This document shows, in pieces, positions 6,001 to 12,000 of a stretch of 23,072 nt of DNA. Position numbers: made by a program. Positions within the stretch are counted from its first letter, which is position 1. Each line of letters starts with the position of its first letter. Origin of the DNA: a virus (Duplodnaviria > Heunggongvirae > Uroviricota > Caudoviricetes); IMG/VR virus record IMGVR_UViG_2667527789_000007, positions 1 through 23,072 of that record; one strand, written 5' to 3'.

Positions 6001-9000
6001 ATATGAAGGCAAGGATAAAAATCCACAGGGCATTAATATCAGGTATCGCTACGAGATAACGGATGATTTTGGCGTTATCACCTCTTTTACATGGACGCGT
6101 TCTCTCACTAACTCACAGACATTTATTGATGTGCAGTCAGCCGATCATACCAGGAAGATTAAGAATCCGGCAGCTTCTGCCAGAACGGATATCAGGGCGA
6201 ATTACTGGAGTCTGTTAGCGGGGCCTTCATGGCGGGTTAATCAGTACATGAGTTTATATGCGATGGCAGGGATGGGCGTTGCTAAAGTTAGCGCTGACCT
6301 GAAAATTAAGGACAATATTAACAGTAGTGGCGGATTTTCTGAAAGCAACAGCACGAAAAAAACCTCCCTTGCGTGGGCTGCAGGTGCACAGTTTAACCTG
6401 AATGAGAGTGTTACACTGGATGTGGCTTACGAAGGTTCCGGCTCTGGCGACTGGCGCACGAGTGGCGTTACTGCTGGCATTGGCCTGAAATTCTGACCTG
6501 TATCCGGTAACCGTTTACTACCCGCTGTGATGGCGGGTTTTTTATTGCCCGTACAGGGCAAAAACCGTAAATTATGCGTGGGTGCCTTTCGGCTGATGGC
6601 TGGAGGGAGAACCTGAAGGCCTGATGTGGAAAGGCCCCGAGTCAACTTAACGTTAACCCGAGGCCCTAATCATCATACCTTAAGCAAGTAGAAGGTTAGC
6701 GCCTCTCTGTAAAAGGAGTCAAGCGCTATGTCGCAAAAATCGCTTATCACCGTCACAATTTGTATGACGGTTATCTTCACTATCTGGATGTTGCACGGTT
6801 CGCTGTGTGAGTTCCGGCTGAATTTGTGGGGAGCGGAGTTTGCGGCGTTCTTACAGTGTAAGCAGTAGGAAAACCGCGACGGGGACGAAAGTCCCCGTCA
6901 ACTGGTTGCTGAGGTTCAGCCGATATGGCACCCGTTTGTAGTGTATGTTTTATACAATGCAGGCTGACAGAGAGAGGTAATATTTATCAATGGTAAATAA
7001 TAACCACAGAAAATGTTTTGTTTTTTCTGAGTAATACTGGTGTTATTTAGGGTAAGTTTTTGATGCGTATTGCATTCTTGTGATTTTAATCATTAATTTT
7101 TCTTAACCCATTGATTTTAATATTTTATTTGCCTTGTTATTATGAGTAGTATCCCTGAAGACATTTGCGTTCCGAATGTCAACATACTTATAACATGATT
7201 TAACATAAGGGTACACATCATGAAAAAGGCAAGCAAGCTATTGTTGGCTTTAATGCCAGCATTAAGCCTGTCATTATTTTCTGCTGGAGCGTATGCCAGT
7301 GGTTATTCCGTTACACCTGAAACTCTGAATAGTAATTCAATGACTTCTGCGGAATTTTTGAAAGGTATCGGTGTATATCCAAAAGAGGGAGGGGCTCCTT
7401 TAATTAAGCTTGTTGATGGTAAGGTTACTCCTCTTAACGGGAATACACCAACCTCATTAAATATAGACGCTGTTTCCGGTAAATATTTGAAATATACCTT
7501 AATTGATTATGGTAAGGCTGGCCTGACAGATACCGAGTTAGTTGCTCCAAGGGGAGACATCGTCTCATATTATGATTACGCGAATGAGACAGCTTATTTT
7601 GTAAACACAAAAACCAATCAAATTCTGTTTAGTGCAGATGGCGAAGGAGTTGTCTCGACAGTAGGCGCTGATGGAAAAACATATTCAAGACATATTCCTG
7701 AAATTAGTGAATATATTTATGAAATTAAAATGAAGGCTGTGCAATATGGAGCCACTATTGACACTGGTCTTTCTGCTGCAGATGTAACAGATATTCACGC
7801 CCGTCTGTCTTCTCTGGGCACCGGTAAAACTCAGGTTGGTGGCGGGGCAACAGCAGGCGGAGAAAACGCCACTGCTGTCGGTTACAACGCCACTGCAAAC
7901 CATACGAACAGTGTTGCTGTAGGGGCTAACTCTCAGACCACTCGCCCCGATGAAGTTAATGTGGGGAATCGTGTAATTGGTGGGCTTCGTGATGGTGTTC
8001 AGGCTGCGGATGCCGCAACCTATGGTCAGTTAGAGCGCTATCGTATTGCAGAAGAGAATGCCCGTATTCAGGGTGATGCACAGACACTGAAGTCTGCTAA
8101 TACCTACACAGATAACCGGGTCAGTACCCTGGAGCGTAGTACTAATCAGCAATTCCGTCAGTTACGTGATGAGGTGGAGAAAAACCGTAAACGTGCAGAT
8201 GCAGGTATTGCAGGAGCAATGGCGATGACTGCCATTCCTGTTGTTGAGGGTAAAACGTACTCCTTTGGTATGGCTGCAAGTAACTACCGTGATGAGCAGG
8301 CTATCGCAGCAGGTATGTACTTCCGCACCACTGAAAATTCTGCTGTACGTTTGAATGCTTCATGGGATACCCAGAACGGTTCAGGTGTTGCTGCGGGTAT
8401 GTCTGTCGGCTGGTAATTTATTTTTTGCGGAGAACGCCAGCCGTGTTGGTTATCGGAAGCGTTCTCCGTCATCCTTCTGTCGCTGAAGACACAGCACAGT
8501 CACATTGTTCTTTTTTGTGGTGAGAGTGTGAGTGAAAAAATTCTCCGGTATATGCAGCGTGTGGTGAGAAATTCCCGCAACCCTGAATTTATGAATGAAG
8601 TTAAAGACGCCTGCCTTAAAAAGCAGGCGTTTTGTTTTGAGGCACCTGATGGCTTTCTGGTGCTGCGTTCTGTGCTCAGTGCTGATGGTATCCCTTATGT
8701 TCTGGTGTTGCTGGGCGTGTGTACGGGGAGTAACAGCGTTGAGCGTTATCTGCCGGAGGTGAAGACATTAACCCGTCTGGCTGGCGGACGCTGGGCTGAA
8801 TTTCATACGGCAAGGCGGGGATTTATCCGGCTGGGAAAACGTCTGGGCTTTGAGCGAATGCCGGATGATGAGGATGGCTTCATGGTGTTCAGGATAGCGG
8901 TCTGACTGCTACAGTTTTCATCATTGTGTTTAAACCAACATTGTAATTCACATTCTGACCCTGCTCCGGCAGGGTTTTTTGTTATCCAGGGGGCCATTAT

Positions 9001-12000
9001 GGGTGGAAGTAAAGGCGGTGGTGATACCAAAGTAAAACCAACAGCAGCGCAAATAGCGCAGGAAGAAGTGGCCTGGAAAGGGTGGCAGGATTATCAAAAA
9101 ATCCTCCGTCCGGCAGAAGATAACTTCATGGAAAAGGTCGATGACCTGAACAGTGAGCAGCAGTACGAAAATATCGCTGGCACAACAAATCTTGGTTATC
9201 AGAAACAGTTTGGTGAAGCGCGAAGGGAGCTGGCGGGTAATCTTGCTCAGTCCGGCGTTGACCCATCCAGTGGTCGTTTTAATGCGGTAATGGATGCAAA
9301 TCAAAGCGACCAGGTGACCGGGCAGATTGACACAACCACACGGGGGCAGGTGTCGCAGGCAGATAAGTATGTTGCCGGGCTACAGGATGTTGCTGCTCTC
9401 GGTTCTGGTCAGAAGGCGGATGCGTTACAGAGTTTTAACTCTCTGGCAGACAGCAGTCTGGCAAAAGCTAAATCGGATGCACAGGCGGCGTTTACGAAAC
9501 AGCAGGGGCGAGCCTCTCTTGTTGGCGCTGGTCTGGGTGCGGCAGGTGCATATGTGATGCATAAGGCTGGCGGTAGCGGAGGAAGTGGCGGTGCTAAAAC
9601 ACCTGGCACTGGCGCTAATGCCATTCAGCATCAGGCTCAGAACTGGAGACTGTGATTATGGAGTACGGTAAATACGAAACACTTGCAAGATACGGTTATA
9701 CCGGAGCAGCCCGCCCTCAGGGGGACTGGCAGACATCCGCAGCGCTGACCCGCCAGCAATACGACGACTGGCGCACCAGATATTTACCCCGTGTAGCAAG
9801 GCTGGCTGACCTTGGGGAGAACAACAGTCTGATGAATGCACAGCTTGCACGGGTGGGAGGCCTTGCCACTTCCAGTCTCCGTACAGCGCAGATGGCGCAG
9901 GATAACCAGATGGCGAGATACGGGGTAAACCGCCCGGATAATCCCGACAGTAATACGCTGGGGTTACGTAATGCCCTGGCAATTGCTGGCGCGAAAAATG
10001 GTATCCGTGAAGCCGAACAGGATCGCCAGATGAATATTCTGACGGGGGCTTCTGCACCGGCAAGACAGAAACTGAGTGTTGGCGGCCAACTGGTGGCAGC
10101 GTAAGGGGGCAATATGGGATACGGTTTACTGGATATTGCAAATCAGTCGCGGCGTGAGGCATTACAGGGAATAAGTGACGCAGACAGACGACGCACAGAG
10201 ATTGAGGCATCAAATAAACAACTGGCTGCTCAACAGAAAGCTCAGAAAAAACAGAATATCGGTACGGGCATTGGTACGGGGGCGGCTATTGGCGCATCCG
10301 TTGGTGGTCCTGTTGGCGCTGTTGCTGGTGCAGTAATTGGCGGCATTGCTGGTTCTTTGTTTTAAGGAGTGGTGAATGAGCGGATTTGCACAGGGGTTAC
10401 TTGCCGGATTCAGCACTGTTGACCAGGCAATGACCCGTCGTAAGGAGCTTGGTTTGCGAGAAGCACAGCTTGCTCAGCAACAGAAAAATAACGAGCGCGA
10501 TTTTGAATTTGCGCAGTCTCAGTTTGAACATAATAAAGACGTTGATCAGCGGAACTTTGATTACAGAGCCAAAGTTGATGACCGCAATTACACACTGCAG
10601 GAAAGGGAGTTTAACGCCAACCAGAATTACCGGAATGCGTCGCTGGGGATGGAACAGCAACGACTCCAGTTGCAGAAATACAACCAGCGACGGCTTGAGT
10701 ATAACGATATGCTGGCGCGCGATCAGCCTGTGATGGCGGCGCTGGGAAAAGCGATTGATGCGGGTGACCATGATGCGGCTTCTCATCTGTTCGGTAAATT
10801 ATCGGACGCCAATCCGCTTAAGATGATGTCAACGGTAGGCTATGCTGCGAAAGCGGGTCAGGCCGTGAACAACCTGCAGAAAATCTTTGATGATAAGCCG
10901 GACAGGGCGATTGCTTCGCTGAATACCCCGGAAAATCTCGATGTGCTTTCCGGCGTGTTTGCCCCGGAACTACAACAGCGTATTGGCATGCCTGATTCAA
11001 CCGGGGAGAAAACGATAAAAGAGGCCAGGATTGGCAGTATCGTACCGGCGCAGCAGGAAGGGTACGTACTTATTGGCCTTGATCTCACATACAGCGATGG
11101 CTCCACCGCGCATAAACCTGTAACAGAATACGGCAGTGCGCACCCTGATGATCAAACCGTGCTGGCGATACCCGTTGATAAGGCTATCGCTCAGGTCAGG
11201 GATCGCAGCAAATTTGCAGAGATATCGAAAAATTATGGTTATTTTATGCCGAAGCAGCAGGGACTTTCTCTGAAAGAGCTTCAGAAGGGGGCCAGCAACG
11301 TAGCGGCGGACGCGATCAAGAATGGCGGTAATGCTCAGGCTGCGGTGGATGAATATTATGCTGCGACTGGTTCACAACCGCATCAACAGAAAATTCAGCA
11401 ACAAAAACTTCAGCAACAGGTTATCAACTGGGCGGGAGATGATCCTGATAAGCTGTCATTTGCCAGAAATGTAGCGGCCCGTCAGCCTGAAATGCTGGAA
11501 CCTCAGAATCAGAAATTGCTGGAGAACGGGTATGCGAATTTTCTCCGTATTCAAAAGGCCAGGGGGGAACAGGCCAGAGATGAAAGTGCTTCATCTGCAT
11601 CTCAGTTTATCCGTGGACTGAAACAGAATTACGCCCAGTAATTCACGATATTCCATTAATACCATTTCCTGATGCCCGGCCATTGTGCCGGGTTTTTTTA
11701 TGGAGTCTGTATGGCCTATTCAGAGGAACAGCGTCCTGAGGCGCAACTCGGTAACCAGAATCGTAACAGCCTGAACATTCAGCAACCCGGCGAAACTGAC
11801 AGCTATGAATCATTTTTCTCTAATCCGAATCGCTGGAAGGATAACAGTACGTCGTTCAGCCTGGGCGATGTATTGCCAACAATGGGTAAAGGTTTCGCCC
11901 AGTCCGTCCGGGGAACAGGGGAAATGGCCCGTGGACTCGGTGATGCGATGATTCAGAGCCCGGTAAAAACAGGGGCGCGTATTTTAAATGAGTTCAGCCG

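What the first reader, a model, noticed from the sequence alone, without database searches (positions are those of the whole stretch)
8958..11699. Terminator-bracketed four-gene cassette resembling a podovirus ejection-protein module inside a siphovirus-like tail region
Between the terminators at 8958-8980 and 11674-11699 sit four tightly packed genes with good Shine-Dalgarno sequences (218, 148, 83 and 421 aa). They are Gly/Ala/Gln/Asn-rich and low in complexity, and one has a glycine-zipper tail. This composition and order recall internal-virion or ejection protein sets of short-tailed phages, yet they lie downstream of tfa, a J-like gene and lom. That indicates a mosaic or hybrid late region, or a self-contained accessory system.
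Basis: inference. Interest (0 to 1): 0.6.

Follow-up and report, generated by a model that had tools for sequence, protein, structure and literature searches.

The report
Ejection-protein genes of Stx phage
These four small genes, plus the giant gene after them, most likely encode proteins that a short-tailed Shiga-toxin phage carries in its head and fires into E. coli to build its DNA entry channel; they are a conserved core of the phage, not a foreign insert.

Summary
Four tightly packed + strand genes (218, 148, 83 and 421 aa) have Shine-Dalgarno sites, G/A/Q/N-rich composition and a glycine-zipper tail, and lie between two real terminators.

The window is the late region of a short-tailed Stx-converting phage of the 933W/Sp5/phi24B type. 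It is not a siphovirus hybrid. The "J-like" gene is the tail needle, and the gene before it is the nozzle.

The cassette equals Sp5 ORF76-79, followed by the giant ORF80. The same gene order recurs in distant Vibrio phages. Burkholderia and Ralstonia phages keep the layout: an ORF76 homologue, a roughly 500-aa gene and a giant gene.

Published phi24B proteomics found all four proteins in virions, yet none is in the cryo-EM model. Sp5 deletions make ORF79 and ORF80 essential after DNA packaging.

New here:
- The 83-aa tail matches the outer-membrane hairpin of P22 ejection protein gp7.
- The giant's N-terminal region matches the membrane-binding domain of N4 virion RNA polymerase.
- All five proteins lack cysteine, as nearly all the proven ejection proteins checked do.

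Best reading: an ejection-protein (ejectosome) module, a new variant of a known kind. Ejection itself is untested. Interest is moderate.

The parts
8528..8905 (+). 125-aa gene (Sp5 ORF75 type, phrog_610). It lies just upstream of the cassette and may be an accessory or assembly factor; its membership in the module is uncertain.
   Evidence: It is homologous to the 131-aa gene that directly precedes the cassette in Vibrio phage 1.205.O (phrog_610 E 5e-15; BLASTP E 2e-8). It contains 3 Cys. No entry for it in the part of the phi24B virion proteome read. No defect was reported for its deletion in Sp5.
8957..8976 (+). Intrinsic-terminator hairpin followed by a T-run. It separates the moron block plus ORF75 from the cassette.
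   Evidence: Scan result. RNA fold -16.5 kcal/mol, z = -4.0. The region is about 95% identical in phiSTEC1589, phi24B and ArgO145, so it offers no covariation information.
8999..9655 (+). 218-aa protein (Sp5 ORF76, phi24B gp51). It is Cys-free and predicted helical, with a Gly-rich hydrophobic C-terminal segment. Proposed role: small ejection protein, an early or outer-membrane component.
   Evidence: phrog_611, plus a weak match to phrog_8003 'virion structural protein'. It is homologous to Bcep22 gp70, which is virion-associated by mass spectrometry (BLASTP E 9e-8; hhalign Prob 100). phi24B gp51 gave 523 PSMs in virions. The Sp5 ORF76 deletion strongly reduces lysogenisation. The AF2 model has pLDDT 40 and is all helical.
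9658..10104 (+). 148-aa protein (Sp5 ORF77, phi24B gp50). It is a shorter paralogue of the 218-aa protein core and a virion component.
   Evidence: phrog_596. Its Vibrio orthologue matches it at BLASTP E 4e-6, and that orthologue matches the ORF76-family profile (HMM E 1e-7, hhalign Prob 94.8). phi24B gp50 gave 129 PSMs. No defect was reported for its deletion in Sp5.
10114..10365 (+). 83-aa protein (Sp5 ORF78; named 'bacteriocin' in RefSeq). It has a polar N-terminal helix and a C-terminal glycine-zipper hairpin ending in GSLF. Proposed role: outer-membrane-inserting element.
   Evidence: hhalign of the family (A5) against the P22 gp7 family gives Prob 93%, E 3e-7, aligning residues 43-83 with gp7 188-229. 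Tail-shuffled controls scored 12.8 +/- 2.3 with a maximum of 23, against 44.8 for the real pair. The same gp7 segment is the V-shaped two-helix hairpin embedded in the outer membrane. The protein was detected in phi24B virions at 13 PSMs, and only 4 of its tryptic peptides are usable.
10376..11641 (+). 421-aa protein (Sp5 ORF79, phi24B gp48). It has a Gly-rich N-terminal motif, a 125-residue helix, an alpha/beta domain and a helical C-terminus. Proposed role: periplasmic tunnel or partner of the giant protein.
   Evidence: AF2 mean pLDDT 87. No match in PDB or BFVD beyond its own family. The family is small: 69 representatives at 50% identity among 1.84 billion proteins. The Sp5 ORF79 deletion is non-infectious although DNA is packaged. 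phi24B gp48 gave 1634 PSMs, more per residue than the portal.
11674..11693 (+). Intrinsic-terminator hairpin followed by a run of seven T's, lying between the 421-aa gene and the giant gene.
   Evidence: Scan result. The stem is conserved through compensatory changes in ArgO145 and Stx2_EH1965. A hairpin occupies the same gap in Vibrio phage 1.205.O and in Bcep22 (-43 kcal/mol, z = -7).
11711..20053 (+). 2780-aa Cys-free giant polyvalent protein (Sp5 ORF80, phi24B gp47). It is the terminal and largest member of the module.
   Evidence: Pfam LPD5, LPD1, MuF_C and LPD38 all score above their cut-offs. The C-terminal ~900 aa are shared with the Vibrio and Bcep22 giants. Residues ~263-423 match the N4 vRNAP gp50 NTD 300-438 (hhalign Prob 94.5, E 8e-8; shuffles reach at most 26.6 against 67.8). 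The protein is essential in Sp5. It is abundant in phi24B virions but not seen in the map.

Best explanation
The four genes and the giant gene that follows are the internal-virion (ejection-protein) module of a short-tailed Stx-converting phage.

Proposed course of events (steps marked as shown or inferred):
1. Expression. The proteins are made late from the Q-antiterminated late transcript, which reads through the two terminators. This is inferred from the lambdoid paradigm; the promoter and Q gene are outside the window.
2. Packaging. The proteins are packed inside the T=9 head and tail lumen. Presence in virions is shown for the phi24B homologues; the location inside is inferred from their absence in the map.
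3. Release. They are expelled through the nozzle once the central needle leaves (inferred).
4. Outer membrane. The 83-aa protein, and probably the Gly-rich C-terminus of the 218-aa protein, insert as helical hairpins into the outer membrane, as the C-terminus of P22 gp7 does. Homology of the segment is shown; insertion is inferred.
5. Periplasm. The 421-aa protein, with its 125-residue helix, extends the conduit across the periplasm and couples to the giant protein (inferred from position, size, essentiality and the model).
6. Cytoplasmic membrane. The giant protein anchors there through an N-terminal domain homologous to the lipid-binding NTD of N4 vRNAP. It carries its polyvalent effector domains into the cell. 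Homology is shown; the function is inferred.
7. Terminators. The terminator before the cassette probably ends prophage-expressed moron transcription (lom, YadA-like gene). The one before the giant gene probably insulates or tunes giant-gene expression (inferred).
For: Identity of the region:
- 186 Stx-type phage records carry the block at 80-97% identity.
- The gene lengths match Sp5 ORF76-80 exactly.

Virion presence:
- The phi24B proteome supplement lists gp51, gp50, the 86-aa reading frame (the 83-aa gene), gp48 and gp47. Length-normalised counts for gp48, gp50, gp51 and gp47 equal or exceed the 12-copy portal.
- None of them is in the cryo-EM model.
- In Bcep22 and JC1 the ORF76 homologue or its positional counterpart, the protein just before the giant, and the giant itself are all virion-associated by mass spectrometry.

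Genetics:
- Sp5 deletions of ORF79 and ORF80 package DNA and make normal heads but are non-infectious.
- The ORF76 deletion is strongly impaired.

Synteny:
- All four proteins and the giant occur in the same order directly after the nozzle and needle genes in Vibrio phage 1.205.O, with pairwise E-values from 4e-15 to 4e-6.
- The same layout is found in Bcep22 and Ralstonia phage Gamede.
- It parallels P22 needle-gp14-gp7-gp20-gp16, T7 gp12-gp13-gp14-gp15-gp16 and N4 gp53-gp52-gp51-gp50.

Homology to proven ejection proteins:
- 83-aa family against the P22 gp7 C-terminal outer-membrane hairpin: Prob 93%, E 3e-7, with clean controls.
- Giant N-terminal region against the N4 gp50 NTD: Prob 94.5%, E 8e-8, with clean controls.

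Composition:
- There are no cysteines in 3650 residues of the five proteins. P22 gp7/20/16, T7 gp15/16 and N4 gp50/51/52 also have none.
- Portal, nozzle and tailspike proteins have 2-8.
Against: - No experiment shows that any of the four proteins leaves the virion or enters the host envelope.
- Deletions of ORF77 and ORF78 alone had no reported defect, whereas P22 gp7 is essential.
- In Sp5 the ORF79 and ORF80 deletions did not bind anti-tail-fibre antibody (data not shown in that paper). Its authors read this as a tail-formation defect.
- The 218-aa protein shows only weak similarity to gp7 (E 0.02-0.1).
- The gp7 match lies in a glycine-rich segment, where convergence is easier than in ordinary sequence.
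- Mass-spectrometric detection of the 83-aa protein is weak, and the phi24B authors dismissed it as a contaminant.
Confidence: 0.72

Rival explanations
1. The four proteins are head-internal assembly or targeting factors. Their job would be to load the giant polyvalent protein into the procapsid, as Hdf, DarA and DdrA do for DarB in phage P1. They would not build a channel.
For: The C-terminal region of the giant matches a 'DarB-like antirestriction' PHROG (E 6e-24). The ORF79 and ORF80 deletions share one phenotype. The proteins are in virions but are not ordered. The cassette always accompanies a giant gene.
Against: The Sp5 mutants were induced from and tested on the same K-12 strain, so loss of anti-restriction should not abolish infectivity (inference). 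The 83-aa tail matches a membrane-embedded segment of a proven channel protein. The giant's N-terminal region matches the membrane-binding NTD of N4 vRNAP. No similarity to P1 Dar proteins appeared in any profile search.
Confidence: 0.13
2. They are tail-assembly or tail-completion proteins. This is the reading of the Sp5 deletion study: they would be needed to build or stabilise the short tail on the filled head.
For: The ORF79 and ORF80 deletions gave DNA-filled heads that did not bind anti-tail-fibre antibody. The genes lie in the tail part of the late operon.
Against: The phi24B tail was modelled completely from portal, two adaptors, nozzle, lateral fibres and needle, with none of these proteins in it. 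The antibody result is negative and was not shown. The composition and the two remote homologies point to ejected proteins.
Confidence: 0.08
3. The cassette is a self-contained accessory or moron system, for example a bacteriocin-like toxin module. It would have been acquired by a mosaic phage and be insulated by its own terminators.
For: Terminators flank the cassette. RefSeq names the 83-aa protein 'bacteriocin'. True morons (lom, YadA-like gene) lie just upstream.
Against: The Pfam Bacteriocin_IIc score of 19.5 is below the cut-off of 27.1. There is no leader, transporter or immunity gene. No sigma-70-like promoter was found in or just upstream of the cassette. The genes are conserved in order inside the virion module of distant Vibrio phages. 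ORF79 is essential for infectivity. The proteins are in virions.
Confidence: 0.02

Closest known systems
Phage P22 ejection proteins gp7, gp20 and gp16, with gp14 upstream
   Same: The genes follow the needle gene in ascending size. The proteins are Cys-free and G/A/Q/N-rich. The C-terminal two-helix outer-membrane hairpin of gp7 (residues ~188-229, ending GSLF) aligns with the 83-aa protein tail. The mature gp7 N-terminus (KGGKGGAD) and its LxPxxDx(F/Y) motif weakly resemble the 218-aa protein. The N-termini of gp20 and the 421-aa protein share a G(F/L)LAG motif.
   Different: P22 has three ejection proteins, the largest of 609 aa. Here there are four small proteins plus a 2780-aa polyvalent protein. 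The gp7 functions appear to be split between the 218-aa and 83-aa proteins. The 421-aa protein has no significant sequence or fold similarity to gp20. Single deletions of the 148-aa and 83-aa genes are tolerated.
Phage N4 (Schitoviridae) ejection operon gp52, gp51 and gp50 (vRNAP), and DEV gp73, gp72 and gp71
   Same: A small membrane protein, then a mid-size tunnel protein, then a giant (about 3000-3500 aa) Cys-free encapsidated protein, all encoded after the tail tube and plug genes. The head is T=9 with an N4-family capsid protein. The giant's N-terminal region is homologous to the lipid-binding NTD of gp50.
   Different: The giant cargo here has no RNA polymerase domain. It carries LPD5, LPD1, MuF_C and LPD38 domains. 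There are four small proteins rather than two. No significant similarity to gp51 or gp52 was found.
Phage T7 internal core proteins gp14, gp15 and gp16
   Same: A clustered operon running from small to large after the nozzle gene. The small member is membrane-active. The proteins are required for infectivity but not for packaging.
   Different: No sequence similarity was detected. No stacked core density is reported in phi24B heads. No lytic transglycosylase domain was detected in the giant.
Virion-associated proteins of Bcep22-like Burkholderia and Ralstonia podoviruses (Bcep22 gp70, gp74, gp75; JC1 gp67, gp68, gp69)
   Same: True relatives. The nozzle is homologous. gp70 is homologous to the 218-aa protein. 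A protein of about 500 aa sits before a giant whose C-terminal ~900 aa are homologous. All are found in virions by mass spectrometry.
   Different: In those phages an acyltransferase gene and a PAPS-reductase gene are interleaved. No 148-aa or 83-aa homologue was identified. gp74 shows only a weak N-terminal resemblance to the 421-aa protein. The giants there are about 4600 aa.
Phage P1 Dar system (DarB with Hdf, DarA, DdrA)
   Same: A very large head-internal protein that is injected with the DNA, accompanied by small proteins. The giant's C-terminal region matches a 'DarB-like' PHROG.
   Different: The Dar proteins protect against restriction and, from general knowledge of the P1 Dar system rather than any result obtained here, are not needed for infection as such. 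ORF79 and ORF80 are essential on a non-restricting host. No similarity of the four small proteins to Dar proteins was detected.

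Membership tests
Podovirus ejection (internal virion) proteins / DNA ejectosome | Genes clustered and co-oriented, downstream of the nozzle or needle genes, ordered small to large and ending with the largest protein | tested here: met
   The order is 218, 148, 83, 421 and 2780 aa, with gaps of 2-69 nt, after the nozzle (1799-3490) and needle (3487-4755) genes. The order parallels P22, T7 and N4.
Podovirus ejection (internal virion) proteins / DNA ejectosome | Proteins present in purified virions but not part of the ordered capsid or tail | tested here: met
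   Read from the phi24B proteome supplement for homologues in a cassette about 95% identical in DNA. PSM totals are gp51 523, gp50 129, the 86-aa frame 13, gp48 1634 and gp47 10962. None is modelled in the cryo-EM map. This is published data, not my own measurement.
Podovirus ejection (internal virion) proteins / DNA ejectosome | Required for infectivity but not for head assembly or DNA packaging | tested here: inconclusive
   From the Sp5 deletions: met for the 421-aa protein and the giant, partly met for the 218-aa protein, and not met for the 148-aa and 83-aa proteins when deleted singly.
Podovirus ejection (internal virion) proteins / DNA ejectosome | Proteins leave the particle on infection and assemble in the host envelope | not testable with these tools
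   This needs full-against-emptied particle proteomics, membrane fractionation or in situ cryo-ET.
Podovirus ejection (internal virion) proteins / DNA ejectosome | Sequence or fold homology to an experimentally proven ejection protein | tested here: inconclusive
Podovirus ejection (internal virion) proteins / DNA ejectosome | The small member carries a membrane-inserting helical segment | tested here: met
   The 83-aa C-terminus has a Kyte-Doolittle 19-residue maximum of 1.69, a glycine zipper and a GGP turn. The 218-aa protein has a weaker Gly-rich segment at 172-190 (maximum 0.94).
Class II bacteriocin (the RefSeq name of the 83-aa protein) | Pfam Bacteriocin_IIc score above the gathering cut-off, with a double-glycine leader and adjacent transporter or immunity genes | tested here: not met
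   The score is 19.5 bits against a cut-off of 27.1. The neighbours are virion genes and no transporter or immunity gene is present.
Large polyvalent proteins of phages (LPD domain proteins) | Several LPD domains, or MuF-type domains, in one very large protein | tested here: met
   LPD38 (165 bits), LPD5 (153 bits), LPD1 (84 bits) and MuF_C (64 bits) are all above their cut-offs of about 27 bits. This applies to the giant protein only.
   No such genes are in the window. The 'J-like' gene has only a Phage_Tail_Tip domain and equals the phi24B central needle. Relatives are classified in Sepvirinae and have a solved 22-nm short tail.

The most novel reading that the evidence does not exclude
One ancient ejection module may unite three podovirus lineages usually treated separately. 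In this reading the Stx-phage/GP4/Bcep22 group and the N4-like Schitoviridae share a common ancestral module: small outer-membrane protein(s), then a tunnel protein, then a giant Cys-free cargo protein with a homologous membrane-binding N-terminal domain. P22 gp7 would correspond to a fusion of a 218-aa-type N-terminal part with an 83-aa-type outer-membrane hairpin. The giant position would then be a swappable payload slot, holding an RNA polymerase in N4 and polyvalent effector domains in Stx phages. The Cys-free, G/A/Q/N-rich signature would be a general and cheap predictor of proteins that must pass unfolded through the tail.
Probability: 0.3. Interest if true: 0.7.

Novelty: new variant of a known kind. 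Interest (0 to 1): 0.45.

Why it matters
Short-tailed Stx phages spread Shiga toxin genes among E. coli, and this cassette is in about 8% of complete E. coli genomes. All four genes are still annotated 'hypothetical' or 'bacteriocin'. The 2026 phi24B structure paper left these virion proteins unexplained and asked how the giant protein is organised and delivered.

Assigning the cassette to the ejection machinery gives testable roles for four orphan families. It explains two essential Sp5 genes. It links the Stx-phage entry apparatus to the well-studied P22 and N4 systems. It also points to entry-blocking targets and to a route by which about 300 kDa of effector domains enters the cell.

Tried and rejected
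Searches that found nothing:
- Sequence searches of the 218-, 148- and 421-aa proteins, and of the ORF79-family profile, against PDB chains: chance-level hits only.
- NCBIfam and Pfam: nothing above cut-off for the four proteins.
- hhalign of the ORF79 family against P22 gp20, T7 gp15 and N4 gp51: noise level.
- BLASTP of ORF75 against the Bcep22 gp69 acyltransferase: nothing.

Models and data not used:
- The 218-aa AF2 model (pLDDT 40) was too poor to use for fold search.
- The product names in PQ600364 ('portal protein', 'N4-family major capsid protein' on cassette genes) repeat in the same order as the names on the true head genes earlier in the record and were ignored.
- The IMG/VR scan with P22 gp7 returned only relatives at 86-100% identity, which limits the depth of that profile.

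Leads that went nowhere:
- A 1386-aa protein with an ORF79-like N-terminus (P0152) was checked as a possible fusion with the giant. It had no Pfam domain and no similarity to the giant.
- The phi24B lysogen-expression paper does not mention these genes.

Interpretations considered and rejected, for the reasons given under the rival explanations: bacteriocin or accessory system, siphovirus hybrid, and pure Dar-like anti-restriction.

Full report
**1. The observation**

The window carries four + strand genes at 8999-9655 (218 aa), 9658-10104 (148 aa), 10114-10365 (83 aa) and 10376-11641 (421 aa). They are separated by 2, 9 and 10 nt, and each follows a purine-rich Shine-Dalgarno motif.

A consensus scan finds terminator-like sites at 8957-8976 and 11674-11693, both followed by T-runs. 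The total number of such sites in 7000-21000 is not above shuffled sequence (21 against 14.9 +/- 3.8). These two, however, lie in intergenic gaps. The first folds at -16.5 kcal/mol (z = -4.0). The second keeps its stem through compensatory substitutions in ArgO145 and Stx2_EH1965.

G+A+Q+N makes up 36-47% of the four proteins, against 18-33% in their neighbours. The 83-aa protein ends in a glycine-zipper hydrophobic segment.

One correction concerns the giant ORF. It most likely starts at 11711, after a GGAG. The ATG at 11672 lies inside the terminator hairpin and reads ACG in ArgO145.

**2. What the region is**

The 2.7-kb block matches 186 phage records over at least 80% of its length at 80-97% identity. 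All are Stx-converting or closely related E. coli and Shigella phages, including phi24B (Sepvirinae, Traversvirus). It is also present in 425 of 5426 complete E. coli genomes, and the window is identical to E. coli FHI_NMBU_11.

These phages are short-tailed. The 563-aa gene upstream (1799-3490) corresponds to the phi24B nozzle. The 422-aa 'J-like' gene (3487-4755) has a Phage_Tail_Tip domain and corresponds to the central needle. lom (5762-6496) and a YadA-like trimeric autotransporter gene (7220-8416) are morons inserted between the tail genes and the cassette. So the 'siphovirus-like tail region' and the 'hybrid' idea do not hold.

The gene lengths match Sp5 ORF76 (218), ORF77 (148), ORF78 (83), ORF79 (421) and ORF80 (2793) exactly.

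**3. Published experiments on near-identical homologues**

In the systematic Sp5 deletion study (PMC5155283):
- The ORF79 and ORF80 deletions formed no plaques or lysogens. They still packaged DNase-resistant DNA and made normal heads.
- The ORF76 deletion still formed plaques but lysogenised very poorly.
- ORF77 and ORF78 were deleted singly without a reported defect.
- The authors called ORF79 and ORF80 'tail formation' genes, because anti-tail-fibre antibody did not bind the mutants. Those data were not shown.

In the 2026 phi24B cryo-EM and proteomics preprint (10.64898/2026.04.10.717836), the proteome spreadsheet lists:
- gp47, the giant, labelled 'IP?': 10962 PSMs.
- gp48, the 421-aa protein, labelled 'Transcription factor?': 1634 PSMs.
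- gp51, the 218-aa protein: 523 PSMs.
- gp50, the 148-aa protein: 129 PSMs.
- The 86-aa reading frame that contains the 83-aa gene: 13 PSMs.

Normalised by length to the 12-copy portal, the batch sample gives roughly 37, 32, 48 and 23 copies for gp48, gp51, gp50 and gp47. The same crude measure gives 6.2 for the 6-copy nozzle, so I take it as good only to within a few-fold. The 83-aa protein has only four usable tryptic peptides.

None of these proteins is in the atomic model. The text proposes only gp47 as an ejection protein. It does not discuss gp48, gp50 or gp51, and it dismisses the 'bacteriocin homolog' as a contaminant.

**4. Conservation and synteny**

Vibrio phage 1.205.O, a distant relative, has genes of 131, 201, 117, 77, 442 and 3130 aa in this order directly after its nozzle and needle genes, with no morons in between. 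Each of the last five is homologous to its window counterpart:
- 201 aa against 218 aa: 26% identity, E 4e-15.
- 117 aa against 148 aa: 22%, E 4e-6.
- 77 aa against 83 aa: 43%, E 2e-12.
- 442 aa against 421 aa: 28%, E 3e-12, over the central domain.
- The giants: 41% over the C-terminal 900 residues.

The 131-aa gene is homologous to the window's 125-aa ORF75.

Bcep22 and Ralstonia phage Gamede keep the layout nozzle, small gene, ORF76 homologue, a gene of about 500 aa, then the giant. In Bcep22 and JC1 these proteins are virion-associated by mass spectrometry.

The 421-aa family is small, with 69 representatives at 50% identity among 1.84 billion proteins. The 218-aa family is broader and includes proteins named 'virion-associated' in Burkholderia and Ralstonia phages. 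The ORF76-family profile also matches the Vibrio 117-aa protein (E 1e-7; hhalign Prob 94.8). The 148-aa protein is therefore a short paralogue of the 218-aa protein.

The module is thus a conserved core part of the virion gene set and moves with the nozzle and the giant gene. It is not a self-contained accessory unit.

**5. Links to proven ejection proteins**

*Gene order.* P22 has needle, gp14, gp7, gp20, gp16. T7 has gp12, gp13, gp14, gp15, gp16. N4 has gp53, gp52, gp51, gp50. All show the same logic as here: small to large, after the nozzle or plug.

*Composition.* The five window proteins contain no cysteine in 3650 residues. P22 gp7, gp20 and gp16, T7 gp15 and gp16, N4 gp50, gp51 and gp52, Bcep22 gp70, gp74 and gp75, and the five Vibrio proteins also contain none. 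Portals, nozzles and tailspikes have 2-8. G+A+Q+N is 0.36-0.49 in P22 gp7, gp20 and gp16.

*The 83-aa family and P22 gp7.* The 83-aa family profile aligns with the P22 gp7 family over residues 43-83 against 188-229. Both run to the C-terminus and end in GSLF (hhalign Prob 93%, E 3e-7, score 44.8). Column shuffles confined to the glycine-rich tail scored 12.8 +/- 2.3 with a maximum of 23 in 200 trials, and the reversed target scored 14.8. An HMMER-based shuffle test was weaker, with 2-3 of 2000 shuffles reaching the real score. In the recent in situ P22 structure (10.64898/2026.09.03.749273), exactly this part of gp7 forms a V-shaped pair of helices embedded in the outer membrane and lined by the N-terminus of gp20.

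*The giant and N4 vRNAP.* The giant's N-terminal region (about residues 263-423, aligned together with the Vibrio and Bcep22 giants) matches N4 vRNAP gp50 residues 300-438 (Prob 94.5%, E 8e-8, score 67.8). Locally shuffled targets scored 16.7 +/- 2.7 with a maximum of 26.6. BLASTP of Bcep22 gp75 against gp50 gives E 2e-4. That region belongs to the lipid-binding NTD that anchors vRNAP at the cytoplasmic membrane (PMC13434306).

*Weaker, non-significant resemblances.* These include the 218-aa N-terminus against the mature gp7 N-terminus and an LxPxxDx(F/Y) motif (E 0.02-0.1), and the G(F/L)LAG motif at the N-termini of the 421-aa protein, its Vibrio and Bcep22 counterparts and P22 gp20.

**6. 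Structure predictions**

The 218-aa protein gives only a low-confidence four-helix prediction (pLDDT 40). That fits a protein without a stable monomeric fold but proves nothing.

**7. Most likely mechanism**

*Shown:*
- The gene set is a conserved part of a podovirus virion module.
- The homologues are in virions but are not ordered.
- Two members are essential after DNA packaging.
- Two segments are homologous to membrane-embedded parts of proven ejection proteins.

*Inferred:*
- After the needle is released, the small proteins leave through the nozzle.
- The 83-aa hairpin, and probably the Gly-rich C-terminus of the 218-aa protein, insert into the outer membrane. Overlap between these two would explain why the single ORF78 deletion is silent and the ORF76 deletion is leaky.
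- The 421-aa protein extends the conduit across the periplasm and couples to the giant.
- The giant's N-terminal domain anchors at the cytoplasmic membrane while its polyvalent domains (LPD5, LPD1, MuF_C, LPD38) act in or on the cell.

*Terminators.* The late operon of lambdoid phages is read by Q-modified, terminator-resistant polymerase. This is established knowledge; the Q gene and promoter are not in the window. The two terminators would then matter mainly outside late transcription. The first probably ends prophage-state transcription of the moron block. The second, or an equivalent hairpin, recurs between the 421-aa-type gene and the giant gene in Vibrio phage 1.205.O and Bcep22. It may insulate or tune giant-gene expression. 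This is unproven.

**8. Rivals**

- *P1 Dar-like loading system for the giant.* This fits the shared ORF79 and ORF80 phenotype and the DarB-like C-terminal match. It does not explain complete loss of infectivity on the same K-12 host, nor the two membrane-segment homologies.
- *Tail-assembly role.* This rests on an unshown negative antibody result. It conflicts with a complete tail model that lacks these proteins.
- *Bacteriocin or accessory system.* This fails the Pfam cut-off, lacks partner genes, and conflicts with virion presence and conserved synteny.

**9. Novelty and verdict**

Ejection-protein modules are well known, and the giant protein has already been proposed as an ejection protein. 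In the papers and annotations I could search, the four small proteins have no assigned role. The links to the P22 gp7 outer-membrane hairpin and to the N4 vRNAP NTD are, as far as those sources show, not described.

I file this as a new variant of a known kind: a five-protein ejection module with split small components and a polyvalent giant cargo. Interest is moderate. The finding is medically relevant and makes an open question testable, but it would not surprise a specialist.

Noticed in passing
window 12497-12979 (giant protein residues ~263-423): [quoted passage not shown] The giant cargo proteins of Stx-type and N4-type phages may therefore share an entry domain.
   Followed up: partly
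window 11672-11711: The 2793-aa ORF, as annotated for Sp5 ORF80, starts at an ATG inside the terminator hairpin. That ATG reads ACG in ArgO145. The conserved start with a GGAG Shine-Dalgarno site is at 11711, giving 2780 aa.
   Followed up: yes
window 8999-20053; L003 13377-25426; L004 22580-39801: There are no cysteines in any of the five module proteins (3650 aa). The same holds for their Vibrio counterparts and for Bcep22 gp70, gp74 and gp75 (including giants of 3130 and 4602 aa), and for proven ejection proteins of P22, T7 and N4. Portals, nozzles and tailspikes have 2-8 Cys. This could be a cheap predictor of proteins that pass through the tail into the periplasm.
   Followed up: partly
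window 11642-11710; L003 15919-16033; L004 25917-25992: A strong hairpin lies in the gap between the 421-aa-type gene and the giant gene in three distant lineages. In the window and the Vibrio phage it is terminator-like. In Bcep22 it is a -43 kcal/mol hairpin (z = -7) without a U-tract. Its function is unknown.
   Followed up: partly
window 8528-8905: The 125-aa ORF75-type gene (phrog_610) has a homologue at the same position before the cassette in Vibrio phages. It contains cysteines, and no entry for it appears in the part of the phi24B virion proteome read. Its position parallels P22 gp14 and T7 gp13. I did not pursue its role.
   Followed up: partly
window 7220-8416: A 398-aa YadA-like trimeric autotransporter gene (YadA_head and YadA_anchor domains) sits between lom and ORF75. 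It is present in phiSTEC1589-Stx1c and absent from Sp5 and phi24B, which makes it a likely extra moron.
   Followed up: no
L001 (PQ600364.1) 19595-22706: The deposited annotation of phage phiSTEC1589-Stx1c gives cassette genes product names such as 'portal protein' and 'N4-family major capsid protein'. The names repeat in the same order as those on the true head genes earlier in the record, which looks like a systematic labelling error.
   Followed up: partly
proteins P0226, P0246, P0275, P0286, P0288, P0301, P0303-P0305: Some members of the 218-aa family carry a C-terminal Peptidase_S74 (PF13884) intramolecular-chaperone domain, which is typical of trimeric tail fibres. This hints at an oligomeric, fibre-like assembly state in those variants.
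   Followed up: no
window 5054-5671: The homologue of this 205-aa protein (phi24B gp54) was detected in virions at 94 PSMs. Like the cassette proteins, it has no assigned place in the structure.
   Followed up: no
window 10114-10365: RefSeq and PGAP name the 83-aa protein 'bacteriocin' across many genomes, on the strength of a sub-threshold glycine-zipper resemblance. The phi24B proteomics authors then dismissed it as a contaminant because of that name.
   Followed up: yes
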